From Candidatus Heimdallarchaeota archaeon B3_Heim (GTDB lineage Archaea > Asgardarchaeota > Heimdallarchaeia > Hodarchaeales > Hodarchaeaceae): a stretch of DNA of 32,000 nt. Position numbers and translations under genes: made by a program. The notes below the pieces were generated by a model. That model was not told the origin of the DNA and searched no databases. It saw only the letters and a list, made by a program, of their open reading frames with translations. Shown here piece by piece: positions 12,533 to 28,669 of the stretch; position 1 is the first letter of the stretch, and every line of letters begins with the position of its first letter. The stretch lies in contig NJBF01000001.1 of the NCBI GenBank assembly GCA_003144275.1, forward strand, positions 161,902 through 193,901, given 5' to 3'.

Positions 12533-12564
12533 AATGCATTACTTTCCTATTATAATTTGATATC

Positions 12565-12849: not shown

Positions 12850-12876
12850 TCTATTATCAGTCCGCTTATGATTAGA

Positions 12877-12978
12877 TGCGCCAACCGGGATTTTCAGAAC
12901 TTCTCGAGAGAGATTTTCATTTGAACCCGGGCTATCACCTTGGGAGGGTGAAGTCCTACCAGACTAGACTATCGGCGC
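12877..12978 (-). tRNA. tRNA-Gly(CCC) with a 29-nt intron at position 59/60 (intron 12891-12919)
   Basis: Acceptor GCGCCGA/TTGGCGC, D stem GTCT/GGAC, anticodon arm TCACC-CTCCCAA-GGTGA, T stem CCGGG/CCCGG. Removing the insert gives a 73-nt cloverleaf. CCA is not encoded. Confidence 0.93.
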
Positions 12979-13042
12979 CTGAATCAGTATCTCAGGATAC
13001 TACTAAAGTCCAATTAATAGCATTCTCTTTATTGTTTTTTAT

Positions 13043-13786: not shown

Positions 13787-13898
13787 TGGTGTTCAATTCC
13801 ATTAAAAAGGAAAATCAGCCTCAGACCGCTCATCGCTCTTCATATTGGTAATCTGTACCTTTTAGCTAATCATCACTGGCTAAATTTTTTCAGTCCTA

Positions 13899-14648
13899 TT
13901 ATACTCCAAATTCAGATGGACGAATTTTTACCTGCTCGGTCAGGTCTTCTAAAAGCATTTTTACTTTTTCTGTTTGAGTCGTACTCCCCACTTTGACATA
14001 TTTTTCATGAGCCTTAACTAAAAGATCTATTGCTTCTTTCATGTTTTCTCTTGCGCTAATGAGTGATTTAGCACGACTATATAACGCAAGAGCCTCATAT
14101 CGAGTTGCGTCTTCCCTACCCTTCTTGAATTCCTCAACAGCTCTTTCTAAATAGTACGCTTTGTCAAAATCTGATTCCATGGCTGCAGCGCGTTGTACAA
14201 AAGAACGGGCGCGTGCCTTTGCAGCTTCCAATTCAAGTCCAGTTGTCGAATAAAGCGCACCCGCAGATTCAAATAAACGAGCAGATTCAATAAATTCACC
14301 ATTTTTTGCCTTAAGAATCGCTAATTCACCTTGAGTCTGAGCTTGAACCGTTCTTGCGTGTTTGGCCTCGTCTAAAAAACCCTCTGTCGAAAAAATTACG
14401 TTGGCTTTTCCAAAAGAGCGAATTGCTTTCAAAAAATTCGTTTCAATCATATCAGTGTACCCATATGCACAGAGTCTGAACGCTTCGGCTCTTTTACTCA
14501 ACTTTTTTTCATCCCCATCGTGGAAAAACTTTGAAGATCTCTTAAAATTCTCAACAGCCTCCTTATATCGTTGAGTTTCATAATAAGCCATGCCTTGATC
14601 GAACTGTTTTTGACCTTTCTTAATTTTACTTCCCTTGAATAATACCAT
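13899..14648 (-). CDS. TPR/helical-repeat protein
   Basis: Repeated helical pattern (e.g. GMAYYETQRYKEAVENFKRS, AARLFESAGALY). ATG at 14648 is preferred. Confidence 0.75.
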   Translation of the reverse strand: MVLFKGSKIKKGQKQFDQGMAYYETQRYKEAVENFKRSSKFFHDGDEKKLSKRAEAFRLCAYGYTDMIETNFLKAIRSFGKANVIFSTEGFLDEAKHARTVQAQTQGELAILKAKNGEFIESARLFESAGALYSTTGLELEAAKARARSFVQRAAAMESDFDKAYYLERAVEEFKKGREDATRYEALALYSRAKSLISARENMKEAIDLLVKAHEKYVKVGSTTQTEKVKMLLEDLTEQVKIRPSEFGV

Positions 14649-14920
14649 TAAAAGTAACTCCACAAATAAAGTAAAGCCCATAATAAGTGCTAATAATCAC
14701 AGAATAATTATTACTGAAGATTATTTCTCTTCAATAATCCCGTCAAACATAATAATGATTAATTTTTCTAATAAAGCTTCGCAAAGAGAATTTGAAAATT
14801 ATTAACAAAATTTTCTTTTTGGATTTATATATAGATTCTTGGAAAACTTAAAGAAATTTTGTAAAATGCCTATATGAAGAAGGAAGTACAATCATTTTCT
14901 TTTCAACATGACTAAATTTG

Positions 14921-16186
14921 TCAGACAACTTTGGAAATAAAGTTCTGGACAGGATGAGTCACATATCCGCTATCCGGCAGGCCCGACACCATAAAAGGTG
15001 TAGGAACCATAGGGACTACTTTAAACTTACATATATACCGTTGAAGAATATTCCGAGCCGCATTGTAATCTGCATTCAGGAAAAACCCACACGCTCGACA
15101 TACGAAGCACCCGCGAGATTTACGATTGCGTTTATCTACACACCCACATTGACTACATTGTTGGGAGGTATAAGCTTCGTCCACACGGACTACAGTCATC
15201 CCAACAAGTTTAGCTTTATATTCGAGCATTTTAACGAATTGAAGAAACGGAAGGTGAACAAAAGACTGGTTAGTTCGCTTTCCTAAGTTACAGTGTTGTT
15301 TCCACAGAGGATTATAGCCAATGATTAGTGTATCAATATTTTGCTGCACACAGTAGGAGATAATCTGCCGAGAGGTTTGATGAAAGACATCACGGAGCCT
15401 ATTCGTCCGAACACGCGAGAGGCGTTGAATCCGACGGGTAGTAACCTGTTGCTTGTGAATGGTAGCTAACGACCGATAATGGGCAAGTTGTTTATTATAC
15501 CACTGATTAATTGCCTTAACTACCCCGCCTTTGACGAGTAACCCGTCTGACGAAGTTACGAGGTTGTTAAGGCTGAGATCTAGCCCCATCGCACGAGGAG
15601 GGGAATCAGAGGTGGGAAAGTGTTGTACTTGCACTTCATACAGAATTTCTACCACAAATCGATCATAAAACGGAACTAAACGGGCACCGACACAGGTCTC
15701 GGCAGTAAGAGGCAGTGTTCCCAGCAGGAAGGTGGGAAACCCGCGAAGCATGAGATTTCGAGCAAACAGAATCTGGTTCTCACGGATTCGGACCCGAGGG
15801 CGGGGAAAGTTCAACATATGGAGCCCATTTTTGGGTTTATACCCTGGGATTCGGGGGCGACTCTGAAACTTGGTTGGATCTTTCTTCCACGCTTTTAACC
15901 CATTAAAAAAGCTCCGCCAGGTTTGTTCTACCTGCCGTAGAACTTGTTGGGGAAGGTAACTATCGGAGAGGGTTTTTAAGGCTAAATACACGGGTTCGGC
16001 CTTAAGCTGATGATACAGGGTGGTATATTGCACCCATTTACCTGTCTGAAAGAATGTTTGTCGGACCACATATGTTGCCCGATTGTACAGATTCTTTGCA
16101 CACGCACACAAATCGGTGAAAATTGGCCGTGGTTTCATTTGAATTCGGATGGCCAACTGTGGATGAGGGTGTTTTTTGGTACGCAT
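14921..16186 (-). CDS. tnpB: RNA-guided endonuclease TnpB (InsQ/IS200-IS605/IS607 OrfB family)
   Basis: AKNLYN…QQVLRQV, RuvC-I GLDLSLNN, IIGYN, VDEAYTS, zinc finger CSQC/CRAC and RuvC-III NADYNAARNI. Confidence 0.95.
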   Translation of the reverse strand: MRTKKHPHPQLAIRIQMKPRPIFTDLCACAKNLYNRATYVVRQTFFQTGKWVQYTTLYHQLKAEPVYLALKTLSDSYLPQQVLRQVEQTWRSFFNGLKAWKKDPTKFQSRPRIPGYKPKNGLHMLNFPRPRVRIRENQILFARNLMLRGFPTFLLGTLPLTAETCVGARLVPFYDRFVVEILYEVQVQHFPTSDSPPRAMGLDLSLNNLVTSSDGLLVKGGVVKAINQWYNKQLAHYRSLATIHKQQVTTRRIQRLSRVRTNRLRDVFHQTSRQIISYCVQQNIDTLIIGYNPLWKQHCNLGKRTNQSFVHLPFLQFVKMLEYKAKLVGMTVVRVDEAYTSQQCSQCGCVDKRNRKSRGCFVCRACGFFLNADYNAARNILQRYICKFKVVPMVPTPFMVSGLPDSGYVTHPVQNFISKVV

Positions 16187-16225
16187 TCCCACCTCATTGT
16201 GAGTCCTCGTGTTTATAACTTTACA

Positions 16226-16240
16226 AGAGAGAGAGAGAGA
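16226..16240. repeat. (AG)7 dinucleotide microsatellite
   Basis: AGAGAGAGAGAGAGA read directly, upstream of tnpB. Confidence 0.9.
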
Positions 16241-16601
16241 TTCATGAAAGTGGCGAATGTAGTGAAAATGAGGCTGATTTTGGTCTGAAGAGAACTTTTA
16301 TATTTCGTTGTCAGACAAATTCAACATGTAATCCCGAGGAAAAGTATCTCTGAAAGGAAAAAATACATACATTTTCACCTTTAAGCGATTTAAAGGCAAG
16401 AATAGATGTATAAAGCTGGTAACCTACATTCTATTATTAATAAATTGATATAAAAACTCCTTAATAGAATAAGGCAACATTAATTAATACAGGATTATAT
16501 AAAACGACTATAAGGAGTGTATCTTCACTAATGACTCAAATCTTAGGATAGCAGGCACTCCGACTTTTATCTGGGTTTTAATCAACACTCTGGTTGGTGA
16601 A

Positions 16602-19600
16602 TTGAAATTGTCAATACAAAATAAACGCTTATCACCGTTTTATTCAGTTTTACTTATAGTTCCTCTCTTAATCATGTCCTCCCTTTTATTACCCTTCGTT
16701 GGTATTATTCTTCCTCAGGAGAAGCAATCAGCAGGACATTACATTACTTCTTTACGTGATCCCGACCTTGACACAAATCCACTTCCCCAATCAGGAATTT
16801 ATCGTAATAAAGATTCACAAAACTCTCCTTATTACTCAATTGCTGAAATTGAACCAAATAAAGCAATTTATTTCCCTGAAGAAACAATAAGTGTTGCTAA
16901 TCGCTTCAATAGCGCTCAAACTGGGAGTTATGCGATTGTTTCTCAAGTTATCTATCTATATCTAAATAGTAGTACAATTACAAACCTTTCCGACACCACA
17001 CATCTTATTGCAACAACGGTGACTAACGGCACACATGCAAAGGATTATCCGGCCATCTCAGACGATCAAACTTATGGAATGATAGATGTAACATTTACAA
17101 TCCCAGAAATGACAAATTTAACCAACAGATATGGTATTTCACCCGGAGATAATGTATCAATTTTTCAATACTATCCTGGAGGTAGTACAAATACAACAGC
17201 GAAAATAGAAAATGTTGTAGCTTTCGCGAAAATTGATTATTTTACTGTTAGTGGATTTTCAACACTAACCGAAGTAAATCCAGGATTCATAAATACTGCC
17301 AGTGGTGATGAGACTTTTCGTCAGGGAGAGGAGGCAAGTGTTGTTCTTAAGGCTCAATCGGGTACCACACCATTATCAGGACTTATTGTAGATGTTAAAC
17401 TCCATGATGGGACCACACATACCCTAATATCAAACGGGGGCCCTCAGGGAATTAGCTATAATCTTCTCGATATGACCACAGGATTACCCAGTACGACAAC
17501 AAATGGAAATGGTGAGCTACGTCTGAATGTTACAACTACTTATCCAACAACTCCTGAAAACAACTATTATTTTGTTCTTAACACAACAATTGATCCGCTC
17601 TCTGGATACTTCACAGAGAATTATGACGGAAGTAATGCTGTAACAAATTATGCAGACAGTCATGCTAATTTCACTATTGAGAATGAAATGGATATTGCAG
17701 TTGTTGAGCTTGTTTCTGTGAATCCTTCATCTCCGATAGCTCCGCCTAATGAAAACTATACTCTTGTTACATTTAGAGTAGATTTATTTTATGCATATTC
17801 TAGTGATATTTACCAAGTTGCAGGGATCTTTGTTAATGCAACTTTGGATTCATACCCAACAGGCGTAAATCTAAAATTTGCAGATGATTTCAATGACAAT
17901 AGCTCTGGGTGGGCGGCGACGAATGCAAGTGGAATGATTCAATTCAATATTACGGCAGGGTTTCCTATTCCCTATCAATTAAAAACTCCTACAATCACTG
18001 TAGTTGCTGATTTACAACATAATAATGCGCCAGCAGGTTCTTACCCGAGTAGTTATCCAAATAATCCCCACCGATTTATCAGAAGCACAGGAGGCATGTT
18101 AACAGTTTCTTCAGCGGGTGATACAATTAGTATCGATCCCGATTTTTGGGTTGGTTTAATCAGCTTAAATTCAATTACTTCAACAAACATTCGGCCAGGA
18201 GAGTCCACAACTCTTGTATTTGAAGTAAATACAACCTCTGCACCACTAGTTGATTTTTCAGGTGTGCCAGTAAAGATTGAATTAAACCCATCAATAGCGG
18301 GAGTGTCGTTAACATTTACTAATCCTCAAAATACTCCATACAGTATTTATGGGTATCGGTATACCAATTCAAGTGGAATGATTGAAGTAACAGTCGATAC
18401 TACCTATTTAACTACGCCAGAATTTATTCCCCCTCAATCCGTAAATCTTGACTTAACGGTCGATTTTGAGAATGATTCACAGGCTCGATGGATTGGTACA
18501 CAACATTTGGGTACAACCACTTTAGCAGAATTCAATACCACCTGGTTAACTTCACAGGATGCTAGTTTATCTATTGATCCGAACTTTACATTCTATGAAA
18601 TTATACTCGCCTCGACCAATGAATCTGGAGATACTGTGATACGTTCTGGAGATATTCTGGAAATTAATTTCCGAGTTCAATCAAAAGTAGGAGGAATTGG
18701 TCTAGCAGGAGTTGATGTGAATGTTCTTCTAGGAGGAGCATACGCAGGTGTGACTTTGCTAGGAGGATTATCTACTACCAATGGATCTGGATATGTTACT
18801 GTTAATTTATCTACAACTTATCTGATAACCCCAAAAGATCTTGACATTGTACTCAATGCCACAGCTGACTTAACTTCTGATCCTGGAGTCTGGTTAGTAG
18901 GCCAAAAGTCAACCAATCCAAGTTTTTATTCAAATAGCTCGTATTCAGACGTTGAGGAAATAATTCAAGTTGATCCACAGTACTTCTTTGGAGAAATTAC
19001 TGCTCCTCCCGCAAACAACCCCATCTCAAGGATTGGCCAAACTGATGAAATTAATATCACCTTTAGACTACATTTAAGCGGAGAAGGAACTGTATTTCCA
19101 GATATTAACGATGTAAATATCTCCATTACTGTAGATGGCAATCTCCCTGGAGATTCCAACATGACTGTTCTTCCAGGAGCAAGTTTTCAAGATTCGGTTA
19201 GTAGTTGGGTCACATTTTCCCTTCGACCAACAGAAAACACTACTGAAAAATGGTATACTGTCAACGCTACAGCGCACTTCGGAGATGCTCAGGGATTAGT
19301 GTATAATATCACCACCCATTCCTCTGTGCCATCAAGACAGTTATCAGGTGTGTGGGTTAATGGTTCTCATACAAATGATATTTCCTTCACCACATTCGCT
19401 TTTGAAGTTAAAAATGTAGATCGAATCCAAATTTCAAGTCAAGATATCTCAGACGTAACACATACAGGTGTAGATGCACCAGGTTTGAATGTCTCAACTG
19501 GATATTATGAAATATATAGAGGAACGACTTATATCAATATTTCTGGCAGTTATTACGATCCAGTTGCAACTTTAGGCCTTCCTTCTACCCCTGTAAGAAT

Positions 19601-21701
19601 TTCCTTCAATTGGACCAATCTTGCTATGCAACCACAAACTTCTACTTTAGCAAATGTCACTACAGATGGCAATGGTGAATTTTGGGCTAATATTAGTATA
19701 CCTACATCTATTCCTTTGCAAGATATTCAAATTTACGGTTGGGATCCCGCCTTTCCTACCCCTCAAGAAAATCGCAATCCAATCACAAATATTCGACTGA
19801 TGTCTCGGGTCTTTATTCCTAATCATGCGCTCATTGGATACAATGGTAATGCAATTTTTGTTGGAGAAAACGTAACTTCAGCTGGAACTGTTCGAGACGA
19901 TCAAGGGGTAATTGTTAAATCTACTCAATTTATCGGTCTAATCGAGAATATTGGTTGGGATAGTACTCAAGAAGTAGGAACTGCTATTTCTGGAAGCCTA
20001 TCTTCGGGAAGTTTTTCATTAGATTATCAAATTCCGAATGATTACGCATTAGACGTAATTGCCATTAGAGCTAATGTTATTTGGGGAGCAGGACTAGTTA
20101 ATTACAGACCTCGAATATTCCAACTCTGGGTTAACATTTATAACGAGATCAATATATCTTCGTTCGAAATTTACCTCCCTGCTAACCGTTCTACAATATC
20201 TATAGTGAACGGTAGCACGTATGATATCCCTGGGGATTTGCATCGCCAAATATATATCTCAGGGAATTTAATTGATCAAAATAATAGTGGATTGAATGGT
20301 AAAGACATTAATGAAGCCTGGAATGGCACTGGTGTCACCATTACAAGCGGGGGAGGAGGATTTTTCAATCTTAGCTATGACTTTACTGGATTTACTAATG
20401 TCACTTGGATCTGGGGTTTCTCTCATACTCTAGATAATGGAACCACACTACCCACCACTTTCATTGTAACCTTCAGCTGGATTGCCGTAGATGACACAGC
20501 ACCTTTTATTACAATTAACTCTCCCTCAACTAATCAGACTGTAGCAATAGCCAATATTTCAACAACTCTAATAGAGGTTGATATAATTGACCCAGATAAT
20601 AGTACTGGTCCTGGTTATGTTTCACTTGGGCTAAATACGAGTTCAGTTACCATCACCATTAATGGTACAAGTACCACAATGCTGAATACAGTTGGATCAT
20701 TATTCACTTATGATTGGGACACATCAAATGTAAACGACACAAAATTCTTTATCTCGATTACTGCAATGGATTATGCAGGTAATCTTAGAAATAGCTCATT
20801 TTATGTAGTTATTGATGTAATTCTCCCTACAGCAACTATTAATGTGGTATCCACCACTGTAGACACTACTGTTTACGCAGTAATGAATGAAAACGGGGAT
20901 ATATTTATTTCAGGTAATCTATCCGACTCTAGTTCCAGTACAGGTCGCAATAGTGACATAGATAGTTCCAGCATACAATTAATTATCCGACCCCAAGGTG
21001 GTGCAGCAGTTTTAACATTGAATTCAGTTGATCTCAACGCTAATTCAAATTCCTATTATTATGCCTGGAATATTTTCAATGTTACCTCAAGATTACGTGA
21101 TCCTGATTTCAAATTGGACGAACTCAATTGGGAGTTGGTCTTATCATTAACAGATTATGCGGGAAATATTTATCAAACAATAGGAACTGTAGTATTAGAA
21201 AATGAAAACCCTGGGCTTTTCCCGATTGTGGGGCCTCCCTCACAAATTAGTGAAGGCACCTTTGATCTTATGGTTTCGTATTTTGATATTAAAAGTGGAA
21301 TAAATGAAGATCTTCTAAATTTTACACTCCATGATGCTGCTGATGGTACACTTCTCCAAACCTATAATTCTAATGCTGCTGAAGTAACCTTGATAGCTGG
21401 AACAAATGCTAGTCTAACTTTGAATGCCAATGATTTGAATGATGGACAATATTATGTACGTGTAACAGTTTATGATAATGTAGGTAATTTTGCACCAGCG
21501 CAATCTTCTGATTTCAGCATTCTACACCCAATAACCACTACATCTGCCCCTCCAACTACAACAACCACATCTCCAAGTGGTCCTGGTGTATTACGCCCAA
21601 TTGACCTTATTCAGTTTCTCCTACTCGACATTATAGCCCTAGGCAGTGGAATTGGAATTGCAGTTATCTTTGAAAGAGTAAAATCTAGACGAAAAGCTTA
21701 G
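16602..21701 (+). CDS. Giant membrane-anchored surface (glyco)protein with tandem Ig-like domains, 1699 aa
   Basis: N-terminal hydrophobic signal/TM segment. Recurrent T(N/D)xxG and DxAGN/DNVGN Ig-like motifs and many N-x-S/T sequons. Thr/Pro-rich linker, C-terminal TM segment and basic tail. Confidence 0.85.
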   Translation: MKLSIQNKRLSPFYSVLLIVPLLIMSSLLLPFVGIILPQEKQSAGHYITSLRDPDLDTNPLPQSGIYRNKDSQNSPYYSIAEIEPNKAIYFPEETISVANRFNSAQTGSYAIVSQVIYLYLNSSTITNLSDTTHLIATTVTNGTHAKDYPAISDDQTYGMIDVTFTIPEMTNLTNRYGISPGDNVSIFQYYPGGSTNTTAKIENVVAFAKIDYFTVSGFSTLTEVNPGFINTASGDETFRQGEEASVVLKAQSGTTPLSGLIVDVKLHDGTTHTLISNGGPQGISYNLLDMTTGLPSTTTNGNGELRLNVTTTYPTTPENNYYFVLNTTIDPLSGYFTENYDGSNAVTNYADSHANFTIENEMDIAVVELVSVNPSSPIAPPNENYTLVTFRVDLFYAYSSDIYQVAGIFVNATLDSYPTGVNLKFADDFNDNSSGWAATNASGMIQFNITAGFPIPYQLKTPTITVVADLQHNNAPAGSYPSSYPNNPHRFIRSTGGMLTVSSAGDTISIDPDFWVGLISLNSITSTNIRPGESTTLVFEVNTTSAPLVDFSGVPVKIELNPSIAGVSLTFTNPQNTPYSIYGYRYTNSSGMIEVTVDTTYLTTPEFIPPQSVNLDLTVDFENDSQARWIGTQHLGTTTLAEFNTTWLTSQDASLSIDPNFTFYEIILASTNESGDTVIRSGDILEINFRVQSKVGGIGLAGVDVNVLLGGAYAGVTLLGGLSTTNGSGYVTVNLSTTYLITPKDLDIVLNATADLTSDPGVWLVGQKSTNPSFYSNSSYSDVEEIIQVDPQYFFGEITAPPANNPISRIGQTDEINITFRLHLSGEGTVFPDINDVNISITVDGNLPGDSNMTVLPGASFQDSVSSWVTFSLRPTENTTEKWYTVNATAHFGDAQGLVYNITTHSSVPSRQLSGVWVNGSHTNDISFTTFAFEVKNVDRIQISSQDISDVTHTGVDAPGLNVSTGYYEIYRGTTYINISGSYYDPVATLGLPSTPVRISFNWTNLAMQPQTSTLANVTTDGNGEFWANISIPTSIPLQDIQIYGWDPAFPTPQENRNPITNIRLMSRVFIPNHALIGYNGNAIFVGENVTSAGTVRDDQGVIVKSTQFIGLIENIGWDSTQEVGTAISGSLSSGSFSLDYQIPNDYALDVIAIRANVIWGAGLVNYRPRIFQLWVNIYNEINISSFEIYLPANRSTISIVNGSTYDIPGDLHRQIYISGNLIDQNNSGLNGKDINEAWNGTGVTITSGGGGFFNLSYDFTGFTNVTWIWGFSHTLDNGTTLPTTFIVTFSWIAVDDTAPFITINSPSTNQTVAIANISTTLIEVDIIDPDNSTGPGYVSLGLNTSSVTITINGTSTTMLNTVGSLFTYDWDTSNVNDTKFFISITAMDYAGNLRNSSFYVVIDVILPTATINVVSTTVDTTVYAVMNENGDIFISGNLSDSSSSTGRNSDIDSSSIQLIIRPQGGAAVLTLNSVDLNANSNSYYYAWNIFNVTSRLRDPDFKLDELNWELVLSLTDYAGNIYQTIGTVVLENENPGLFPIVGPPSQISEGTFDLMVSYFDIKSGINEDLLNFTLHDAADGTLLQTYNSNAAEVTLIAGTNASLTLNANDLNDGQYYVRVTVYDNVGNFAPAQSSDFSILHPITTTSAPPTTTTTSPSGPGVLRPIDLIQFLLLDIIALGSGIGIAVIFERVKSRRKA

Positions 21702-21852
21702 AAAAAATTGAAAATTGTAAAAATGATGATAATTGATTTCAGAACAATTATAAGAAAAAAGTATTATGAGGTAAAATCAACCTATTATTTACCAATACCA
21801 AAATAATATATCAAGATATACTTGAATCAGAACTAAATAACAAGACAAATTA

Positions 21853-22353
21853 GTGATAAGAATGAAAGGATTAAATTTCTTTGCTCAGATTGGCCCAGAA
21901 CTTTATATATTTGCTTTTGTTGTGCTAATAGTAGCTAGTGCTTTGGTTTATTACTTCCGTGAAAGAATTATAGACGCGTTAGGAATTACCGCAGCCAAAA
22001 AAACAATTTTGGAACAAGAAATCGAACAACGACTGGTACAAATTAGACAGTTAGCACGACAACAAATGTTTAAGGACGCAGCTGTACTAATGTGGCAGAC
22101 TATGACTCTTGCTTCCGAGGGCTTCCTCGGTGTAGGTCGTGCACCTAATGAATCCGCAAGACAATTAGGTGTTAAACTGATGAACAGAGGTGATCTAGAC
22201 CCTGGCGCAATAAACGCAATTATTGTTGCTTTTGAAAAAGCAAGATACGGTCAAACTCCCTTAACCAATCAAGAATTTAAGGATGGCTTATCAGGCCTGC
22301 ATCAGTTCCTCCAAATGGCTACATCACTTGGAGAAATATCCATCGCAGAATAA
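21853..22353 (+). CDS. DUF4129-like protein with N-terminal TM segment
   Basis: RAPNESARQ…AFEKARYG…LT pattern. Adjacent to DUF4350 and MoxR genes. Confidence 0.75.
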   Translation: MIRMKGLNFFAQIGPELYIFAFVVLIVASALVYYFRERIIDALGITAAKKTILEQEIEQRLVQIRQLARQQMFKDAAVLMWQTMTLASEGFLGVGRAPNESARQLGVKLMNRGDLDPGAINAIIVAFEKARYGQTPLTNQEFKDGLSGLHQFLQMATSLGEISIAE

Positions 22354-22397
22354 CAACTACGATGAACGATTAATACTTGTTTACGAAGTGAGATATC

Positions 22398-24101
22398 ATG
22401 GCTGAGATCAATAAAACAACCAGTGCTTTTATTATTCTAGCCATATTCATTTCTTATCCATTCGCATCTGCTTCCTTGTTTGGGTTTCTTTTTACGAATA
22501 ACTCGACCAATTTTTCGATTTATAATACTGGTTGGAACGGTGCTAGTACGTTTAAAGATCGTTTTATTGAGGATGGAGCACAAATTTCCACAATTGTAGG
22601 AAGTAGTAATGTCCTCAACCGATTAAACCAATCCGAATTAGGGGGCAATCAAGGGTCATTGATCATTCTCGGACCATCCGTTCATTATGATCCTACAGAA
22701 TCGCTAGCTATCTTGATGTACGCCATAAATGGCGGAAGAGTGATAATTGCTGATGATTTTGGTACAGGCAATGACATACTAAGCGTTTTGTCCATATTTT
22801 TAGGATTTATCTCAGAGGTCAACTTGACATCGATGGGATTTGGTGATTCAGGAGGTATAAGTCCTCTTGGACTGAATACAAGCACTGCCAGTCAAAATAT
22901 AACATTTCCAATAGCAGGGATTGCCTTTAATGGAAGTTTATTAGCTGATCAAGGTAGTTATGATGATACCCCACTTACACCTATCTTTCACGCTCCGAGC
23001 ACATCTCAAGAAGGAACGACCTATAAAATGCCTGCTCCTTGGGTTACTGATTTCACGGTAGGATTGAGTGGGAATGGTGTAATTGGGAACTTTGCATCGA
23101 TTATCACAATGAAAGTCCGTTACCCTGACCCCGACAAAAACGAAACAGACCCTGACGCGGCCGAATATATAACCAAATGGGTTCCGATGGGAGAATTCCC
23201 CGCGTCAGCTGCCTCTGCTTATGAAAATTTAGAATTACCTCCAGGAGTTGAGCTCCCTGATATGTCATTTAGTCTTCAAATCGCAGTATTATATAGTAGC
23301 ACACAAGCATGGTTGGAATCCGATATATCAGCAGCAAAAGCCAATGTTAACAACATTGCACCAAATCAGACCGAATGGGCAAATCCAAATGTTGGTTTCC
23401 CAGTATTTGTATACTTTCCCTTTCCATTAGGTGGTCAGATTATTTTGTGTTCAGACCCCTCAATATTCATAAATCAGTACCTAGATACGGAAAACGAGAA
23501 GTATCCAAATGCTAGCCGATATGATAACAGCGCATTCGCAGATAATGTCGTAAGAATTATGATGAATGAACGCCCAGGACAAACAATTATTTTTGATGAA
23601 GGTCATCTGGCAAATAGTCCATTCTCACCCATATTCCCCTTAAGTCTTTATCTTAAATTCTTGAATATGATAACGATGTTTCCACTGTTCGCAATTTTCT
23701 TAGTACCCATTACATTAATTTTGTCACGTAAATTTATTCCAAGAAAGACTCAAGCAAAACCATTGCTACTCACACGAGTTGAACGTTATTACGGACGAAG
23801 TTTCTTTGCTGTAAAAATGAGATGGTTTCTTGAATACAGACAATACTCAAGAGGGCTTGAACTAATTTTTAGAAGATTAAAACGAAATATTATTAAGCGT
23901 TATAGTCCTGAGGAGGATTTAACTCCTGATATTATTGCTACATACCTGATTAATGAATTTCCAGAAACTTTTTCCTTTAAAAATCTCATGGAGAACTTTT
24001 CATTAATTGAAACCATAATTGAATCACGATCATTGATAACTGAAGAGGAATTCCTCGATCATTACTTTTTCCTCAAAAATGTAGGATCAGTAATAAGCTA
24101 A
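22398..24101 (+). CDS. DUF4350-like membrane-anchored protein
   Basis: FSIYNTGWNGASTF, GGRVIIADDFGTGNDIL, SDPSIFINQ and IIFDEGH. TM segments near both ends. Confidence 0.8.
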   Translation: MAEINKTTSAFIILAIFISYPFASASLFGFLFTNNSTNFSIYNTGWNGASTFKDRFIEDGAQISTIVGSSNVLNRLNQSELGGNQGSLIILGPSVHYDPTESLAILMYAINGGRVIIADDFGTGNDILSVLSIFLGFISEVNLTSMGFGDSGGISPLGLNTSTASQNITFPIAGIAFNGSLLADQGSYDDTPLTPIFHAPSTSQEGTTYKMPAPWVTDFTVGLSGNGVIGNFASIITMKVRYPDPDKNETDPDAAEYITKWVPMGEFPASAASAYENLELPPGVELPDMSFSLQIAVLYSSTQAWLESDISAAKANVNNIAPNQTEWANPNVGFPVFVYFPFPLGGQIILCSDPSIFINQYLDTENEKYPNASRYDNSAFADNVVRIMMNERPGQTIIFDEGHLANSPFSPIFPLSLYLKFLNMITMFPLFAIFLVPITLILSRKFIPRKTQAKPLLLTRVERYYGRSFFAVKMRWFLEYRQYSRGLELIFRRLKRNIIKRYSPEEDLTPDIIATYLINEFPETFSFKNLMENFSLIETIIESRSLITEEEFLDHYFFLKNVGSVIS

Positions 24102-24138
24102 TGAGAAATAAATAATAATGCATGCTAATAGATAAGAA

Positions 24139-25206
24139 GTGGAAGAAATGAGTAATACCAGTACAAAGGGCAAGGATTTCACGAGTGATGAAATCACGCA
24201 TGAAATGCTTGATGTGAGTGATATCGCACGAGCATATCAACAAATAATGGGGGAAATCCGTAAAGTATACATTGGAAGAACTGAAATATTTGAAATGCTT
24301 TGGATAGCAATGCTGACTGGAAAGCATGTTTATTTAGAAGGGGTTCCAGGAATTGGAAAGACATATATGGCTAATACATTCTCACAATGTCTTGGTACTG
24401 ATTTCAGTCGTATCCAGTTTACTCCTGACATGCTTCCATCGGATATTGTGGGTACAAATATCTTTAATCCGAAAACAGGGACATTTAGACTGAAAAAGGG
24501 TCCAATCTTTGGTAACGTCATATTAGCTGACGAAGTAAATAGAGCACCACCTAAAACCCAATCTGCTATGCTTGAAGCAATGGGTGAAGGACAAGTTTCT
24601 ATAGAAGGAGAAACGCACAAACTCGAAATACCGTTTGTGGTCTTAGCTACATCTAACCCAGTTGAACAAGAGGGTACATATCCTTTACCAGAAGCTCAGC
24701 TTGACCGATTTATGCTCAAAGTAATAATACACCATTCATCTCCCGATGACGAATTAAGAATTATTAAATTCAAGAATGAACCTGTTCCAGCTATAATTAA
24801 ACAAGTGGTCTCACCTCAAACTATCGTAGCCATGATGGACGTAGTAAAACGAGTATACGTATCTCCTGAAATTCTAGAGATGATCCGCGATATTACAGTT
24901 TCTACACGTACAGATCCACGGTTAATTCTAGGTTGTTCTCCAAGAGGCAGTGAGAGTTTACTGCTTTCCGGAAAATCAAGAGCTGCTATTCATGGACGAG
25001 ATTTCGTGATCCCAGATGATGTTATTCTTATGATTCCGCATGTTGTACATCATCGTCTTATCCTCAAACCTGAGGCTGAACTAGAAGGAATTACCCAAGT
25101 CCGAATTTCTGAGGATGTACGGGATAATTTAACAATCCCAGTCGATCCAGTTGAAGAAGAAATGGTGTATGAAGAATACATAGAAGAAATTGCTGATGAA
25201 GATTAA
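24139..25206 (+). CDS. moxR: MoxR-family AAA+ ATPase
   Basis: Walker A GVPGIGKT, RIQFTPDMLPSD, Walker B ILADEVNRAPPKTQSAMLE and ATSNPVEQEGTYPLPEAQLDRF. Confidence 0.95.
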   Translation: MEEMSNTSTKGKDFTSDEITHEMLDVSDIARAYQQIMGEIRKVYIGRTEIFEMLWIAMLTGKHVYLEGVPGIGKTYMANTFSQCLGTDFSRIQFTPDMLPSDIVGTNIFNPKTGTFRLKKGPIFGNVILADEVNRAPPKTQSAMLEAMGEGQVSIEGETHKLEIPFVVLATSNPVEQEGTYPLPEAQLDRFMLKVIIHHSSPDDELRIIKFKNEPVPAIIKQVVSPQTIVAMMDVVKRVYVSPEILEMIRDITVSTRTDPRLILGCSPRGSESLLLSGKSRAAIHGRDFVIPDDVILMIPHVVHHRLILKPEAELEGITQVRISEDVRDNLTIPVDPVEEEMVYEEYIEEIADED

Positions 25207-25252
25207 CAAAAGATTCCCGTCAATTGAATTTGGTGAAAAGGTGTATCCTTGA

Positions 25253-26722
25253 ATGCTTTCGTCTCGCGGTGCTTTTATTGCTATTGGAGGAATCTTACTC
25301 TTATCGGTTGGACTCAGCGCGAAGGGAATTGGAACAGTTACTACTATGATTCCGATTCTCTTTAGTGGAGAGGGATTAATACAACAATCTGGCAATCAAA
25401 CAGCAAGCGGTTTGCCTGAAGGGATGGAATTTCTCGAAGCTTTTGAAATTTTAAACAGTTCTCCGATTGTAGATTACAGTATGTTTTTAGGAACTTTACT
25501 GATTCTGGCTAGTGTCATAGGATTACCATTCTTCAGAGCATCAGCAAATGCTTCATTAATACGCGTTACACGTAGGGTAGATAGAGAAAAAGCTTTTGCA
25601 GGGGAGTACGTACATGTAACAGTTAGAGTAGAAAACACTGGCGGAAAAAGAATTGATTTTCTCGAAATATATGATGCTATACCAGATATGTTTGAAATTG
25701 TTATAGGGGAGAATTTCATTATAACTCAATTAGCTGGTCATGAAACGAAAGAATTCTCATATATAATACAGGTTAGCACGAGAGGAGTATATCAGATAGG
25801 CCCTGTGAAAGTCATTATTCATGATCGATTAGGTTTCTATTTTGAAGAAGATGTGAGACACTTTTATACTGAAGTGTTATGCTATCCATCATACGAAGAT
25901 ATTCGTAGAATGGAGGCATTGAGTAAGCGAAGGCAACAAGGTAAAATGTTTGGCGCTCATAAAACGAGACAAAAAGGCATGGGTGATGATTTCCATTCTT
26001 TAGCACGTTATTATCCTGGAGCACCTTTCAAATCATTAGACTGGAAAGCCTTTAGTCGTACAGGGGAATTAATGGTACGAGAATTTGAAGCTGAAAAGAA
26101 TATACGTATCGTTCTATTTCTTGACCACAGTGGAAGTATGGGGGCTGGTATCCCAAACAATACAAAACTAGATTTTGCCATCCGATCGGTGATGCTAGTC
26201 ATGAAGATGGCTGAAGAACGACAAGATCTTTTTGGACTATTAACGTATGCTGACAGACCCACATCTTATTTACCTCCTGGGGGAAGTAAATCGATGTTTC
26301 ATCAACTTCTAGAAATACTTGCATTAGTTGAACCAGAAGGTCGTTCAGATCCTCTTGCTGCCGTTGACTATGTTATGCAAAGATTACCAAGAGCGTCATT
26401 TTATGTTTTTCTAACTGACCTTGAATCTTCTGATTCAGAGATTTTTACTGAAGCAGCTAAAAGAGCACGTTCTAGAAAAAACAGGATAACAGTAATTTCG
26501 CCTTTCGGACCATTATTCGAAACGAAACTGACCGACTTATCAACTACTGAAAGAGCCATTGCCGAGGCCATCTTTGAGGAATATTTAGGATATCGTAAAC
26601 AAGTAGAAGATAGTTTAAGAGGACTTGGGGTAGAAATCATCAATGTAGGTCCTGATGATATTCTTCCTAATGTAATAAAGACGTATATGAAAGGAAAACA
26701 AGTTGGAAAAGGTTCGGTGTAA
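25253..26722 (+). CDS. DUF58 / von Willebrand A domain protein
   Basis: N-terminal TM segments, Ig-like VRVENTG segment, FHSLARYYPG…LDWKAFSR and MIDAS-like FLDHSGS. Confidence 0.88.
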   Translation: MLSSRGAFIAIGGILLLSVGLSAKGIGTVTTMIPILFSGEGLIQQSGNQTASGLPEGMEFLEAFEILNSSPIVDYSMFLGTLLILASVIGLPFFRASANASLIRVTRRVDREKAFAGEYVHVTVRVENTGGKRIDFLEIYDAIPDMFEIVIGENFIITQLAGHETKEFSYIIQVSTRGVYQIGPVKVIIHDRLGFYFEEDVRHFYTEVLCYPSYEDIRRMEALSKRRQQGKMFGAHKTRQKGMGDDFHSLARYYPGAPFKSLDWKAFSRTGELMVREFEAEKNIRIVLFLDHSGSMGAGIPNNTKLDFAIRSVMLVMKMAEERQDLFGLLTYADRPTSYLPPGGSKSMFHQLLEILALVEPEGRSDPLAAVDYVMQRLPRASFYVFLTDLESSDSEIFTEAAKRARSRKNRITVISPFGPLFETKLTDLSTTERAIAEAIFEEYLGYRKQVEDSLRGLGVEIINVGPDDILPNVIKTYMKGKQVGKGSV

Positions 26723-26727
26723 TCAAA

Positions 26728-28113
26728 ATGGCAACAAATCAAAGCGCAGCATACTTCTTCCGAGTTATCTATATGGTCTTGTTTATTTTTTCGGGATTCC
26801 TTGTAATTTCCAGTATCGATTCCGCAATGTTTGATTTTGCTAAAGTTTTTGAGATTCTAAATTATGTAATGCTGATTGTTCAAGGGATTGTGAGTGCTAT
26901 GGGGGAAATAGCGAAATTAATTACCAATTATATTCTTTCAGTTAAAGCGTCTATTCCTTACCTTGGAAATATCATTGGAGATCCAAGCTTAGGGACACTT
27001 AATATCGTTGACATAGAGCAAACGCTTGCTAGCATTTTTAACCCTGATAATGGTTTTTATCCTCATTCAACCATAGATCTTGCTGAAGTAGATATTATCC
27101 AAGAGTTCTCAATCTTCTTTGGTGCAACAACAATTTTGATTTTATTACCAATTGCATTTTTCTCAGGAATAGGCTTTCTACGAGAAGGCGATACAAAATT
27201 GGCAATTTATTCATTTTTAGGGTTTCAAATGATCTTGATTGTGGCAATTTTTACTCAGAATATAAAAATCTCAACCCAGATTGATACTAGCTCATTGTTT
27301 TCAATGATTATTAGTCCAATCTTCACATTGGGCTTCCTGTTGTATTTACTCCTTGAAGTGGCATTTCAAACCTCGTATACCCTCAATATTATTGAACCAA
27401 TGTCGGAACGAGAGAAAAGAATTCAAGGCCACCTTAAACGAATCAGAACCTTTGTACCAATTGAAGAAGGAGCTAAAAGTACCGATCAATCAATACAAAG
27501 TATGCAATCAAGTAAACATGGCCTATTAGCAGCAAGCTATTTGCGTGAAATGGTAGAGCGACGTGTATTTAAAAGGGGAGAAACGGTTCGTGATTCGAAA
27601 TCTATGATGAGATTGCAGTCTTATCTTGCTAACCTTCAACAAAGTGATCCACGTGTAGATTTAAAATTAGCTGCTCAAACAGCTCAACCAGACGCGAGCT
27701 CATTAATCAAATATTTCATTCCAGCCATGATATTTCGAATTATCGCGGTAGTAGTCCTTGCATATTTCATTATGGCCCCCGAGGGTGTATTGAATCTTGA
27801 AATACTCGGAATTAAGCTTTTCATCTTTCCAGCATTGGTGGATAGTCTCGAAATATCCCAGCCAGAATTCCAGACAATACTTATCTTAAATATGGTTTTA
27901 ATTCTTATACTCGTTGGTGTAATTTTAAAATACTTGACAAGTGGTAAAACTAGGAAAGTCATGGAGCGTGTAGTACAACGAATAGACACTCTAGTTGATT
28001 TTGATCGCTCTACTCCGCAACCCACAGCTTCTAGCGAACCATCCGAAGAAGACAGTATATTAGATGAGGAGGAGGAAGAACTATTAGACACGGAGGAGGA
28101 AGAACAGACCTAA
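26728..28113 (+). CDS. Hypothetical multi-pass membrane protein with acidic C-terminal tail
   Basis: Several hydrophobic segments, a polar central loop and an E/D-rich C-terminus. Starts 5 nt after the DUF58 stop. Confidence 0.8.
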   Translation: MATNQSAAYFFRVIYMVLFIFSGFLVISSIDSAMFDFAKVFEILNYVMLIVQGIVSAMGEIAKLITNYILSVKASIPYLGNIIGDPSLGTLNIVDIEQTLASIFNPDNGFYPHSTIDLAEVDIIQEFSIFFGATTILILLPIAFFSGIGFLREGDTKLAIYSFLGFQMILIVAIFTQNIKISTQIDTSSLFSMIISPIFTLGFLLYLLLEVAFQTSYTLNIIEPMSEREKRIQGHLKRIRTFVPIEEGAKSTDQSIQSMQSSKHGLLAASYLREMVERRVFKRGETVRDSKSMMRLQSYLANLQQSDPRVDLKLAAQTAQPDASSLIKYFIPAMIFRIIAVVVLAYFIMAPEGVLNLEILGIKLFIFPALVDSLEISQPEFQTILILNMVLILILVGVILKYLTSGKTRKVMERVVQRIDTLVDFDRSTPQPTASSEPSEEDSILDEEEEELLDTEEEEQT

Positions 28114-28135
28114 CCTCCCTCTTGAGAGAAAAATC

Positions 28136-28669
28136 ATGCCGAAACTAGATCCAGAGAGTAGCGATGCACGGAAAAAGCTAAATAGTCAAATTCCTGGTTA
28201 CCTTTGCTATGAAAAACAACCAGATAGAAAACATTCTGATACTTCAATCAAAAAATATTTAGAAAATCGTTTATCGACCTGCTCAGATGACGTTAAGAAA
28301 ATTCAAGAAGCTGCGTTGATGAGTCAGATGATTACGACTTGGTCAGATCTTGATAGATTGGTTTCTAGCTTCACAGATTCTCGATATGTAATTAAAGCGT
28401 CGAAATATGGAATAAGTACTTTCTTTGATTCCGGTTTAATCAAAGACTTTGATCTAGGCTATTTATACACTTTAGAAAAAACAGTTCTCGATGTAATTGA
28501 CCGATTAGATGAGAAAATAAAGCAATTTGATGATTCGATTGAAAGCGGGATGCTTTCTGACAGTAGTAGACTAACAAATGAAATTCTGGAAGATCTCGGC
28601 GCAATTCAGGATGCTTGGCTAGAAAGACAAAAATTGGTTGCTGATTTTCAGAAACTAGGCTTAGTCTAG
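28136..28669 (+). CDS. Hypothetical helical protein
   Basis: 177 aa (IPGYLCYE…YGISTFFD…LYTLEK). Last gene of the co-directional cluster. Confidence 0.7.
   Translation: MPKLDPESSDARKKLNSQIPGYLCYEKQPDRKHSDTSIKKYLENRLSTCSDDVKKIQEAALMSQMITTWSDLDRLVSSFTDSRYVIKASKYGISTFFDSGLIKDFDLGYLYTLEKTVLDVIDRLDEKIKQFDDSIESGMLSDSSRLTNEILEDLGAIQDAWLERQKLVADFQKLGLV

What the first reader, a model, noticed from the sequence alone, without database searches (positions are those of the whole stretch)
16602..28669. Giant Ig-repeat surface protein coupled to a DUF4129-DUF4350-MoxR-DUF58 module: candidate surface-structure assembly system
Seen in the sequence: seven co-directional genes with gaps of 151, 44, 37, 46, 5 and 22 nt. 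They encode a 1699-aa anchored Ig-repeat protein, three membrane-anchored partners, a MoxR ATPase, a vWA/DUF58 protein with TM and Ig-like parts, and a small helical protein. Established knowledge: MoxR ATPases work with vWA partners as chaperone-like remodelers, and DUF4129/DUF4350/MoxR/DUF58 cassettes are widespread but largely uncharacterised. Here DUF4129 stands alone, with no transglutaminase domain that I could see. Inference: a membrane-spanning machine in which cytoplasmic MoxR/vWA powers maturation, display or remodelling of the large surface protein, possibly for adhesion or partner contact in an Asgard archaeon.
Basis: partly seen in the sequence, partly recalled or inferred. Interest (0 to 1): 0.72.

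Follow-up and report, generated by a model that had tools for sequence, protein, structure and literature searches.

The report
Asgard surface giant with MoxR module
A Hodarchaeales (Asgard) archaeon has a real seven-gene cluster pairing a huge, fast-evolving, sugar-coated surface protein with a membrane-bound MoxR ATPase module; it is a split, enzyme-less variant of a cluster found across Asgard archaea, predicted in 2015 and never tested.

Summary
Seven co-directional genes with the stated gaps encode a 1699-aa anchored beta-sandwich surface protein, DUF4129, DUF4350, MoxR, DUF58/vWA, a 7-TM protein and a small protein.

The giant is part of the module, not a chance neighbour. In 13 of 18 loci sampled from 16 other Asgard families, the gene just upstream of DUF4350-MoxR-DUF58-membrane protein is one 1170-2377-aa protein. 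Its layout is TgpA-like membrane part, transglutaminase core, MG/Ig-like repeats, TM helix, cytoplasmic DUF4129.

A profile of the window's giant aligns with that ectodomain and TM (hhalign 97.8%). The 166-aa DUF4129 protein aligns co-linearly with the fused TM+DUF4129 tails. This genus therefore carries a fission variant without the transglutaminase: the giant has no cysteine, and no orthologue of the sister-family enzyme was found in 21 genomes of the genus.

The giant is the fastest-evolving gene in the block (36-43% identity against 60-90%).

The function is untested. Makarova et al. (2015) already predicted the general idea, and the bacterial TgpA, PFNA and Esr systems are close parallels. 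This scan has noted the cassette before on other DNA (490 notes, including a Lokiarchaeum follow-up).

Verdict: new variant of a known, unexplained kind; moderate interest.

The parts
16474..16490 (+). Promoter-like AT-rich box (ACATTAATTAATA; genus consensus ACATAAATAAAG), about 115 nt upstream of the giant's start
   Evidence: The only block conserved across 15 genus orthologues in the upstream alignment. Inferred BRE/TATA; no transcription start data.
16602..21701 (+). Giant surface protein, 1699 aa: N-terminal signal/anchor, about a dozen MG/Ig-like beta-sandwich domains, Thr/Pro stalk, C-terminal TM helix, 9-aa basic tail. It has no cysteine and 56 N-X-S/T sequons.
   Evidence: The profile aligns with the ectodomain plus TM of fused Ig-TM-DUF4129 proteins of sister families (hhalign prob 97.8%, E 8.7e-13).
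17217..19406 (+). Five ~145-aa internal repeats (aa 206-935) within the giant
   Evidence: Segment-against-whole hhalign, prob 84-99.6%. AF2 all-beta, pLDDT ~70. Foldseek matches MG-domain arrays.
20472..21551 (+). Three Big_13-like Ig repeats (aa 1291-1650) within the giant
   Evidence: Pfam Big_13, repeat hhalign, AF2 pLDDT ~90.
21528..21698 (+). Thr/Pro-rich stalk, C-terminal TM helix and basic tail of the giant (aa ~1643-1699)
   Evidence: Aligns with the TM that precedes DUF4129 in the fused homologues.
21702..21852 (+). AT-rich spacer between the giant and DUF4129. It has no run of five or more T, it has TATA-like stretches, and a conserved GTGATAAGAATG lies at its 3' end.
   Evidence: An internal promoter or read-through are both possible; this is unresolved.
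21853..22353 (+). TM-anchored DUF4129 protein (166 aa; likely start ATG 21862). It is the detached equivalent of the cytoplasmic tail of the fused giants.
   Evidence: Pfam PF13559; TM 17-35; co-linear alignment with the TM+DUF4129 C-termini of 14 fused proteins.
22398..24101 (+). DUF4350 (arCOG01314-type) protein: N-terminal anchor, ~395-aa glycosylated ectodomain, TM 424-442, ~125-aa cytoplasmic tail
   Evidence: A homologue is present in 141 of 151 Asgard genomes.
24139..25206 (+). MoxR AAA+ ATPase (Walker A GVPGIGKT at 68-75; Walker B-type ILADE)
   Evidence: AAA_3 E 5.9e-63 and AAA_lid_2; motifs. No TM, so cytoplasmic.
25253..26722 (+). DUF58 protein: two-TM hairpin, Ig-like (BatD/DUF11-like) domain, vWA domain with MIDAS DHSGS at 291-295
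   Evidence: D291, D389 and neighbouring residues are invariant in 29 Asgard orthologues.
26728..28113 (+). Seven-TM protein with a 121-aa basic loop (209-329) and an acidic C-terminal tail; a conserved last gene of the Asgard module
   Evidence: HMM hits at this position in 15 of the 18 loci sampled from other families. No Pfam family and no fold match.
28136..28669 (+). 177-aa soluble protein, specific to Hodarchaeales
   Evidence: Present after the 7-TM gene in genus loci only. All 64 sequence homologues are Hodarchaeales/Heimdall-labelled or unlabelled, at 56% identity or more. No family.

Best explanation
This is the local version, in one genus of Hodarchaeales (Heimdallarchaeia), of an Asgard-wide envelope module.

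In most Asgard families the module's first gene is one giant protein. It has a TgpA-like membrane part, an extracellular transglutaminase core, a long array of MG/Ig-like beta-sandwich domains, a TM helix and a cytoplasmic DUF4129 tail. It is followed by DUF4350, MoxR, DUF58 (vWA) and a polytopic membrane protein.

In this genus the transglutaminase part is gone. The beta-sandwich array is a separate, C-terminally anchored, cysteine-free, heavily N-glycosylatable 1699-aa protein. The TM+DUF4129 tail is a separate 166-aa protein.

Shown: homology, conserved order, fusion and fission, topology, intact ATPase and MIDAS motifs, and fast evolution of the giant.

Inferred mechanism: the parts form one trans-membrane complex.
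- Outside: the giant's array and the GldG-like DUF4350 ectodomain.
- In the membrane: their TM helices, the DUF4129 anchor and the 7-TM protein.
- Inside: the DUF4129 domain, the DUF4350 tail, the membrane-tethered DUF58 vWA adaptor and the MoxR hexamer.

MoxR, recruited through the vWA/MIDAS adaptor, would use ATP to remodel the cytoplasmic tails. This would control insertion, oligomeric state or turnover of the surface giant. It would be an inside-out, housekeeping envelope-maintenance machine rather than a signalling device, because the conserved gene set carries no kinase, FHA, transcription-factor or effector output.

Odds: the giant is a true module component, about 0.85-0.9. The inside-out assembly/maintenance direction, about 0.45.
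For: - Same-genus synteny of all seven genes in 13 complete loci, with three more cut by a contig end or an insertion.
- Sister families of the class have a ~1050-aa Transglut_core protein, then a 1200-1360-aa Ig-like protein with C-terminal DUF4129, then a small DUF4129-like protein (matched by the DUF4129 query in about half of these loci), DUF4350, MoxR, DUF58 and a membrane protein.
- Of 18 loci from 16 other Asgard families, 13 have a 1170-2377-aa TGase/MG/Ig protein directly upstream of DUF4350. Its DUF4129 is fused at the C-terminus in ten and lies on a following small protein in three. Gaps are often zero or overlapping.
- The giant profile against the fused-protein profile gives prob 97.8%, E 8.7e-13, with giant 663-1695 aligned to ectodomain plus TM.
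- P0002 aligns co-linearly with the TM+DUF4129 tails.
- Independent split forms occur in other families (L046, L050/51, L042).
- A DUF4350 homologue is present in 141 of 151 Asgard genomes, which fits a housekeeping role.
- Topology and sequon density: 56 sequons in the giant and 11 in the DUF4350 ectodomain, against 2 in the 395-aa post-hairpin part of DUF58.
- Walker A and MIDAS motifs are intact and conserved.
- The flanks hold no signalling genes: F420 ligase, TPR, TnpB, MFS.
- The giant shows 36-43% identity where MoxR/DUF58 show 84-90% and the flanking F420 ligase about 70%.
- Near-identical short contigs of the giant, MoxR, DUF58, the DUF58/7-TM junction and the 7-TM gene occur in one sediment metatranscriptome library. 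This is a weak sign of expression.
- Published predictions of the same kind of complex: PMC5898192.
Against: - No physical interaction, localisation or phenotype is known for any archaeal member.
- The giant is separated from the cassette by a 130-190-nt AT-rich spacer in this genus, with TATA-like stretches. It may have its own transcript.
- Within the genus the flanking genes are syntenic too, so genus-level conservation alone proves nothing. The argument rests on the wider phylum sample and on profile-level homology of repeat-rich proteins, which can be inflated by Ig-like repeats.
- One family (f5) keeps TGase, Ig-DUF4129 and DUF4350 without an adjacent MoxR/DUF58. The ATPase pair is therefore not always linked.
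- Loss of the transglutaminase means that a possibly central activity of the ancestral system is missing here.
- The direction of action, inside-out or outside-in, is pure inference.
Confidence: 0.5

Rival explanations
1. Outside-in sensor. The hypervariable giant is an extracellular filament that detects a ligand, a partner cell or a parasite. The signal passes through the TM partners and DUF4129 to vWA-MoxR, as proposed for the Esr pathway of Actinomycetota and the MoxR-vWA ternary conflict systems.
For: - Esr combines a surface filament of 14 Ig-like domains (EsrA), MoxR, vWA and a transglutaminase that retains EsrA on the cell. Deleting esrA1 abolishes the response to an epibiont (bioRxiv 10.64898/2026.09.08.750141).
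- The giant here is the fastest-evolving gene of the block, as expected for a receptor in an arms race.
- MoxR also matches the bpMoxR profile (E 2.2e-11).
Against: - There is no kinase, phosphatase, FHA, transcription factor or effector gene in the conserved set or in the flanks.
- No beta-propeller or other distinct sensor head was seen. Both AF2 models are beta-sandwich arrays.
- The module is near-universal in Asgard, unlike patchy conflict systems.
Confidence: 0.2
2. A novel secretion system, as in the model of Makarova et al. 2015. The GldG-like DUF4350 protein, the membrane proteins and MoxR/vWA would export or translocate the large Ig-like proteins or other cargo.
For: - Published prediction for arCOG01314 neighbourhoods (PMC5898192).
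- DUF4350 gives a weak ABC_transp_aux/GldG-type signal.
- Most components are membrane or extracellular proteins.
Against: - The giant has an ordinary N-terminal signal/anchor, which suggests Sec export.
- No channel-forming or ABC component is present.
- The DUF58 Ig-like and vWA parts follow a two-TM hairpin and are predicted to be cytoplasmic, not secreted as in that model.
Confidence: 0.12
3. Membrane-proximal protein degradation or quality control, as in the model of Zhang and Aravind 2012 for MoxR-vWA-TGL operons. The vWA protein recruits substrates, MoxR unfolds them and a transglutaminase-like peptidase cleaves them.
For: The ancestral Asgard gene has a Transglut_core domain, and the MoxR-vWA-TGL triad is the core of that model (PMC3495828).
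Against: - In this genus no transglutaminase-like domain is in the cluster, and the giant has no cysteine.
- In the Asgard fused proteins the TGase core lies between the N-terminal TM block and the Ig array, so it is extracellular like the periplasmic TgpA domain (PMC3507681). That puts it on the opposite side of the membrane from MoxR.
Confidence: 0.1
4. The giant is only a neighbour: a lineage-specific surface or S-layer-like protein that sits next to an independent MoxR cassette.
For: - Own promoter-like box, and a 151-nt spacer with possible internal promoter.
- The flanks are also syntenic within the genus.
- In f9 (L044) no giant is adjacent.
Against: Profile homology to the ectodomain of the fused proteins, the same position across 16 families, and recurrent fusion and fission with DUF4129.
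Confidence: 0.08

Closest known systems
arCOG01314 (DUF4350)-associated 'putative novel secretion or membrane-remodelling complex' of archaea (Makarova, Galperin, Koonin 2015, PMC5898192)
   Same: A membrane-anchored DUF4350 protein with an extracellular flavodoxin-like domain, a MoxR COG0714 ATPase, an Ig-like+vWA protein, Ig-like surface proteins and multi-TM proteins in one neighbourhood.
   Different: Here, and across Asgard, the Ig-like partner descends from a TgpA-like transglutaminase giant with a DUF4129 tail. The DUF58 vWA part is predicted to be cytoplasmic, not secreted. The arCOG02884-type 'S-layer' partners named in the paper were not seen.
MoxR-DUF58-TgpA operon of bacteria (P. 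aeruginosa PA2875-PA2874-PA2873; PMC3507681; MoxR-vWA-YebA/TGL operon of PMC3495828)
   Same: A MoxR, DUF58/vWA and membrane protein set with a DUF4129 tail. The Asgard fused homologues also carry weak TgpA_N and a clear Transglut_core.
   Different: The window's cluster has no transglutaminase core and no TgpA_N. It adds DUF4350, a 7-TM protein and a ~1600-aa beta-sandwich ectodomain. DUF4129 is a separate protein.
Esr pathway of Schaalia odontolytica (bioRxiv 10.64898/2026.09.08.750141) and the PFNA cluster of Bifidobacterium (pkb2, fn3, aaa-atp, duf58, tgm; PMC8430577)
   Same: A long Ig/FN3-repeat surface protein encoded with MoxR and a vWA/DUF58 protein. The surface protein is the divergent component.
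   Different: Esr and PFNA have a transglutaminase, Ser/Thr kinase, phosphatase and FHA outputs, and EsrA has a beta-propeller head. None of these is present here. DUF4350, DUF4129 and the 7-TM protein were not among the Esr/PFNA components named in the passages read here.
Asgard clusters noted earlier in this scan (Lokiarchaeum ossiferum seven-gene cluster with a giant transglutaminase-like surface protein; Heimdall-group paralogous modules)
   Same: The same module and the same conclusion: a known but unexplained kind with a fast-evolving giant.
   Different: This genus lacks the transglutaminase part and has the DUF4129 tail detached.

Membership tests
arCOG01314-associated module (Makarova 2015) | DUF4350/arCOG01314 protein with signal/anchor, large ectodomain and a C-terminal TM | tested here: met
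   PF14258 E 1.2e-10; TM 10-28 and 424-442; 11 sequons in the ectodomain.
arCOG01314-associated module (Makarova 2015) | Adjacent MoxR (COG0714) ATPase and an Ig-like+vWA protein | tested here: met
   AAA_3 5.9e-63; DUF58 8.9e-25, VWA_2 and a BatD/DUF11-like part.
arCOG01314-associated module (Makarova 2015) | Ig-like-domain surface proteins and multi-TM proteins in the same neighbourhood | tested here: met
   Giant beta-sandwich array; 7-TM protein.
TgpA-type MoxR-DUF58-transglutaminase triad | Transglut_core domain with a Cys-His-Asp triad | tested here: not met
   No PF01841 hit in any of the seven proteins. The giant has 0 Cys. hhalign of the giant against the sister TGase profile gives prob 1.6%. 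No orthologue in 21 genomes of the genus beyond E ~5e-4 hits to an unlinked ~810-aa ORF.
TgpA-type MoxR-DUF58-transglutaminase triad | N-terminal multi-TM TgpA_N (DUF3488) block | tested here: not met
   The giant has a single N-terminal hydrophobic segment and no PF11992 hit. Weak PF11992 hits occur in fused homologues of other families.
TgpA-type MoxR-DUF58-transglutaminase triad | Cytoplasmic DUF4129 after a TM helix | tested here: met
   Present as a separate protein: PF13559, TM 17-35, aligned with the fused tails.
Esr / PFNA-type sensing clusters | Ser/Thr kinase, phosphatase and FHA output genes in the cluster | tested here: not met
   No such domains in the seven proteins or the flanks, nor in the conserved Asgard gene set.
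Esr / PFNA-type sensing clusters | Long Ig/FN3-repeat surface protein with a distinct sensor head (beta-propeller in EsrA) | tested here: inconclusive
   The repeat array is present. The N-terminal ~50-205 region is a separate, non-repeated, beta-rich domain of unknown type. No propeller was seen.
MoxR AAA+ ATPases | AAA_3 core with Walker A and B, plus AAA_lid_2 | tested here: met
   GVPGIGKT at 68-75; ILADE read directly from the sequence.
vWA domain (MIDAS-competent) | DxSxS motif plus a downstream conserved Asp | tested here: met
   DHSGS at 291-295. D291 and D389 are invariant among 29 orthologues.
Archaeosortase (PGF-CTERM-type) substrates | A recognised C-terminal sorting signal and an archaeosortase in the genome | tested here: inconclusive
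   No NCBIfam sorting-signal hit. PF09721 was not found in the 94%-complete genome, but the control rang in only 1 of 14 genomes, so sensitivity is doubtful.

The most novel reading that the evidence does not exclude
In Hodarchaeales, the archaea placed closest to eukaryotes, the module could be an outside-in contact sensor. The hypervariable, glycosylated MG/Ig filament would recognise a syntrophic partner or a parasite. It would pass the signal through the now-detached TM-DUF4129 adaptor to a vWA-MoxR pair. The MoxR family is held to be the closest prokaryotic relative of the dynein/midasin AAA domains (PMC3495828). This would make the module a primitive cell-cell recognition device, with loss of the transglutaminase and the fission marking a switch from covalent wall-building to reversible sensing.
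Probability: 0.12. Interest if true: 0.8.

Novelty: new variant of a known kind. Interest (0 to 1): 0.4.

Why it matters
The DUF4350-MoxR-DUF58-DUF4129 module is among the most widespread unexplained membrane gene sets of archaea and bacteria, and in Asgard archaea it is near-universal. This locus adds two things.

First, the giant surface protein is an ancestral part of the Asgard module. It descends from a TgpA-like transglutaminase-Ig-DUF4129 protein, and recurrent fusion and fission tie the ectodomain to the cytoplasmic DUF4129 tail. That names a concrete client or partner for MoxR/vWA.

Second, one genus of Hodarchaeales works without the transglutaminase. Whatever the module does can therefore be separated from that catalytic activity.

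Both points give testable handles on how Asgard cell surfaces are built or sensed. This bears on how these archaea contact partners. It does not reveal a new kind of system.

Tried and rejected
- Complex prediction of DUF58 (95-489) with the DUF4129 cytoplasmic domain (40-166), both with alignments: no verdict, score 0.01. This is not evidence either way.
- RNA: one metatranscriptome run holds only 151-213-nt contigs. None bridges the giant/DUF4129 spacer, and DNA carry-over cannot be excluded, so co-transcription is unresolved.
- Hidden transglutaminase in the giant's N-terminal third: rejected. No Pfam hit in 15 orthologues, hhalign prob 1.6%, no cysteine, and all-beta models.
- Sequence search of the giant against the PDB: nothing, best E 0.55.
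- NCBIfam for six of the seven proteins: nothing useful.
- DUF4350 cytoplasmic tail as a cryptic DUF4129: hhalign prob 23%, not supported. The 7-TM loop and the 177-aa protein resemble none of the other parts.
- ESM Atlas for the 7-TM protein gave only Asgard hypothetical clusters and no fold match.
- ESM Atlas feature hits of the 177-aa protein to bacterial clusters (0.93) were not borne out by sequence search, which found Hodarchaeales homologues only.
- Archaeosortase search in the genome: negative, with a weak control.
- Trans-acting transglutaminase: a 776-aa Transglut_core protein exists on another contig next to a topoisomerase, with no link to any MoxR module. Left open.
- The sigma-70 promoter/terminator scanner was not used because it does not apply to archaea.
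Full report
**1. Observation**

The ORF list gives seven + strand ORFs at exactly the stated coordinates, with gaps of 151, 44, 37, 46, 5 and 22 nt.

Pfam assigns:
- Big_13 to the C-terminal end of the 1699-aa protein.
- DUF4129 to the 166-aa protein.
- DUF4350 to the 567-aa protein.
- AAA_3 and AAA_lid_2 (MoxR) to the 355-aa protein.
- DUF58, VWA_2 and a weak BatD/DUF11-like Ig part to the 489-aa protein.
- No family to the 461-aa and 177-aa proteins. NCBIfam adds nothing.

Hydropathy gives the following TM helices:
- Giant: an N-terminal segment, and a C-terminal TM followed by nine mostly basic residues.
- DUF4129: one TM.
- DUF4350: an N-terminal segment and TM 424-442.
- DUF58: a two-TM hairpin.
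- 461-aa protein: seven TMs.

N-X-S/T sequons are dense in the predicted outside parts. There are 56 in the giant and 11 in the DUF4350 ectodomain, against 2 in the 395 residues of DUF58 after its hairpin. With the basic residues after each TM, this places MoxR, the DUF58 Ig-like and vWA parts, DUF4129 and the DUF4350 tail in the cytoplasm.

MoxR has GVPGIGKT and ILADE. DUF58 has the MIDAS motif DHSGS, with D291 and D389 invariant in 29 Asgard orthologues.

The DUF4129 gene probably starts at ATG 21862, behind a conserved GTGAT motif.

**2. Is the giant an Ig-repeat protein?**

Pfam alone supports only the last ~350 residues. Three further lines fill the gap:
- Segment-against-whole profile comparison shows five related ~145-aa units (206-935) and three Big_13-like units (1291-1650).
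- AlphaFold2 with 15 orthologues gives all-beta models for 37-935 (pLDDT 70) and 936-1660 (pLDDT 87.5).
- Foldseek ranks MG-domain arrays of bacterial and animal alpha-2-macroglobulins and complement C3, then titin Ig arrays, at E 1e-13 to 1e-17. Global TM-scores are low, as expected for flexible multi-domain chains.

The protein has no cysteine, so it can have neither a thioester nor a transglutaminase active site. It is 30% Thr+Ser+Asn and ends in a Thr/Pro stalk before the TM. The claim holds as 'about a dozen MG/Ig-like beta-sandwich domains'.

**3. Organism and distribution**

Record titles of the nearest loci name Candidatus Hodarchaeota/Hodarchaeales and Heimdallarchaeota MAGs. The window lies on a 194-kb contig of a 3.95-Mb, 94%-complete genome.

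A homologue of the DUF4350 protein was found in 57 of 61 relatives and in 141 of 151 Asgard genomes sampled evenly across the phylum.

**4. Neighbourhoods**

*Own genus.* In 13 complete loci all seven genes keep their order, and three more loci are cut by a contig end or an insertion. The flanking F420 ligase, TPR and MFS genes are also syntenic, so this alone proves little.

*Sister families of the class.* The order is:
- a ~1050-aa Transglut_core membrane protein,
- a 1200-1360-aa Ig-like protein with TM and C-terminal DUF4129,
- a small soluble DUF4129-like protein (the DUF4129 query matches it in about half of these loci),
- DUF4350, MoxR, DUF58 and a ~500-aa membrane protein.

One family has an 826-aa Ig-DUF4129 protein instead. 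Another keeps the first four genes without an adjacent MoxR/DUF58.

*Other Asgard families.* In 18 loci from 16 other families, 13 have a single 1170-2377-aa protein directly upstream of DUF4350. It carries weak TgpA_N, a clear Transglut_core, many CarboxypepD_reg/MG2/Big_1/MG4-type domains and a TM. DUF4129 is fused at its C-terminus in ten of them and lies on a following small protein in three. It often overlaps or abuts the next gene.

*Split forms.* These recur independently:
- a 2377-aa TGase-Ig protein followed by a 158-aa DUF4129 protein (L046);
- a three-way split (L050/L051);
- a giant-like protein followed by a 162-aa DUF4129 protein (L042).

**5. Homology of the window's parts to the fused gene**

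A profile of 15 giant orthologues aligns with a profile of the sister Ig-TM-DUF4129 proteins over 918 columns. Giant 663-1695 matches ectodomain and TM at prob 97.8%, E 8.7e-13. It aligns with the 826-aa group at prob 96.3%, and not with the TGase proteins.

The 166-aa protein aligns co-linearly (TM, basic stretch, helical domain with the conserved R...E.xRE...FEKARY block) with the C-terminal tails of 14 fused proteins. It is more like these tails than like the small soluble copies.

This genus therefore carries a fission product of the ancestral gene: ectodomain plus TM on one protein, and TM plus DUF4129 on another.

The transglutaminase part is missing. The own genome gives no match to the sister enzyme. 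The 21 genomes of the genus give only marginal hits to an unlinked ~810-aa Transglut_core ORF. Its copy in this genome sits beside a topoisomerase. Genus members without the TnpB insertion also lack a gene there.

**6. Evolutionary rate**

At the same species distances the giant keeps 36-43% identity. The 7-TM protein keeps 57-64%, DUF4350 63-72%, DUF4129 69-78%, the F420 ligase about 70% and MoxR/DUF58 84-90%. Length and domain count stay constant (1563-1740 aa).

**7. Transcription**

A conserved AT-rich box lies ~115 nt upstream of the giant. The spacer after the giant is AT-rich, has no run of five or more T, and has TATA-like stretches. Read-through and an internal promoter are both possible.

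One sediment metatranscriptome library holds near-identical 151-213-nt contigs in the giant, MoxR, DUF58, the DUF58/7-TM junction and the 7-TM gene. None bridges the spacer, and DNA carry-over cannot be excluded.

**8. Literature**

- Makarova et al. 2015 described arCOG01314 (DUF4350) neighbourhoods with MoxR, an Ig-like+vWA protein, Ig-like surface proteins and membrane proteins. They proposed a new secretion or membrane-remodelling complex.
- Zhang and Aravind 2012 described the MoxR-vWA-YebA/TGL operon of bacteria and archaea and proposed membrane-proximal proteolysis.
- TgpA of P. aeruginosa is an essential inner-membrane protein. Its periplasmic domain has transglutaminase activity, and it lies in an operon with PA2875 and PA2874.
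- Bifidobacterium PFNA clusters join fn3, aaa-atp, duf58 and tgm.
- A 2026 preprint shows that the Esr pathway senses epibionts in Schaalia. The pathway comprises an Ig-repeat filament with a propeller head, MoxR, vWA, a transglutaminase that retains the filament, a kinase and an FHA protein.
- No paper in the library tests the archaeal module.
- This scan has 490 earlier notes on the cassette, including Asgard follow-ups with the same verdict.

**9. Mechanism**

Shown: the parts list, topology, homology, fusion and fission, and intact catalytic and MIDAS motifs.

Inferred: a single trans-membrane complex in which the cytoplasmic vWA adaptor and MoxR act on the cytoplasmic DUF4129 and DUF4350 tails, and through them on the surface array.

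I favour an inside-out assembly/maintenance role, because the conserved set has no signalling output and the module is near-universal in Asgard. The rivals are the Esr-like sensor, the secretion-system model, the proteolysis model and the chance-neighbour reading. All are scored in the rival list.

A complex prediction for DUF58 with DUF4129 gave no verdict.

**10. Verdict**

This is a new variant (fission, no transglutaminase) of a known, widespread and still unexplained kind of module. Interest is moderate.

Noticed in passing
window 14921-16192 (-), element about 14902-16328: A TnpB (OrfB_IS605 plus Cas12f1-like TNB) gene sits between the TPR gene and the giant's promoter region in this species only. 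Other genus members have a ~400-600-nt gap there, so the insertion did not displace any module gene.
   Followed up: partly
L094 (G000:C58) 486-2913 (-): A second, smaller MoxR set in the same genome: a 320-aa AAA_3 MoxR, a 297-aa protein with a weak DUF4129 match and a 191-aa ORF. ThiF-like and JAB-like (ubiquitin-type) genes lie a few genes upstream on the same strand.
   Followed up: partly
L038 (G001:C26) 11764-18900: In one genus member about 7 kb is inserted between DUF4350 and MoxR, and MoxR appears in two fragments (75 and 224 aa). The module may be disrupted there.
   Followed up: no
L028, L029, L035 (family f5): TGase, Ig-DUF4129, a small ORF and DUF4350 are kept, but no MoxR/DUF58 follows. 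Unrelated ORFs of 187 and 284 aa take their place. The surface half and the ATPase half of the module can therefore be unlinked.
   Followed up: no
L093 (G000:C80) 5137-7467 (+): A 776-aa Transglut_core protein next to a type IA topoisomerase. Orthologous ~810-aa ORFs occur in other genus members, one about 20 kb from the module in G006. It is a possible trans-acting replacement for the lost transglutaminase.
   Followed up: partly
window 28136-28669: The 177-aa protein has sequence homologues only in Hodarchaeales-type MAGs. One source labels a homologue 'gas vesicle protein', probably an automatic name. GvpN is a MoxR-family relative, so the label is curious.
   Followed up: partly
window 16474-16490 and genus orthologues: A conserved ACATAAATAAAG-type box upstream of the giant gene across the genus, about 85-115 nt before the start. 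This implies a long 5' leader.
   Followed up: partly
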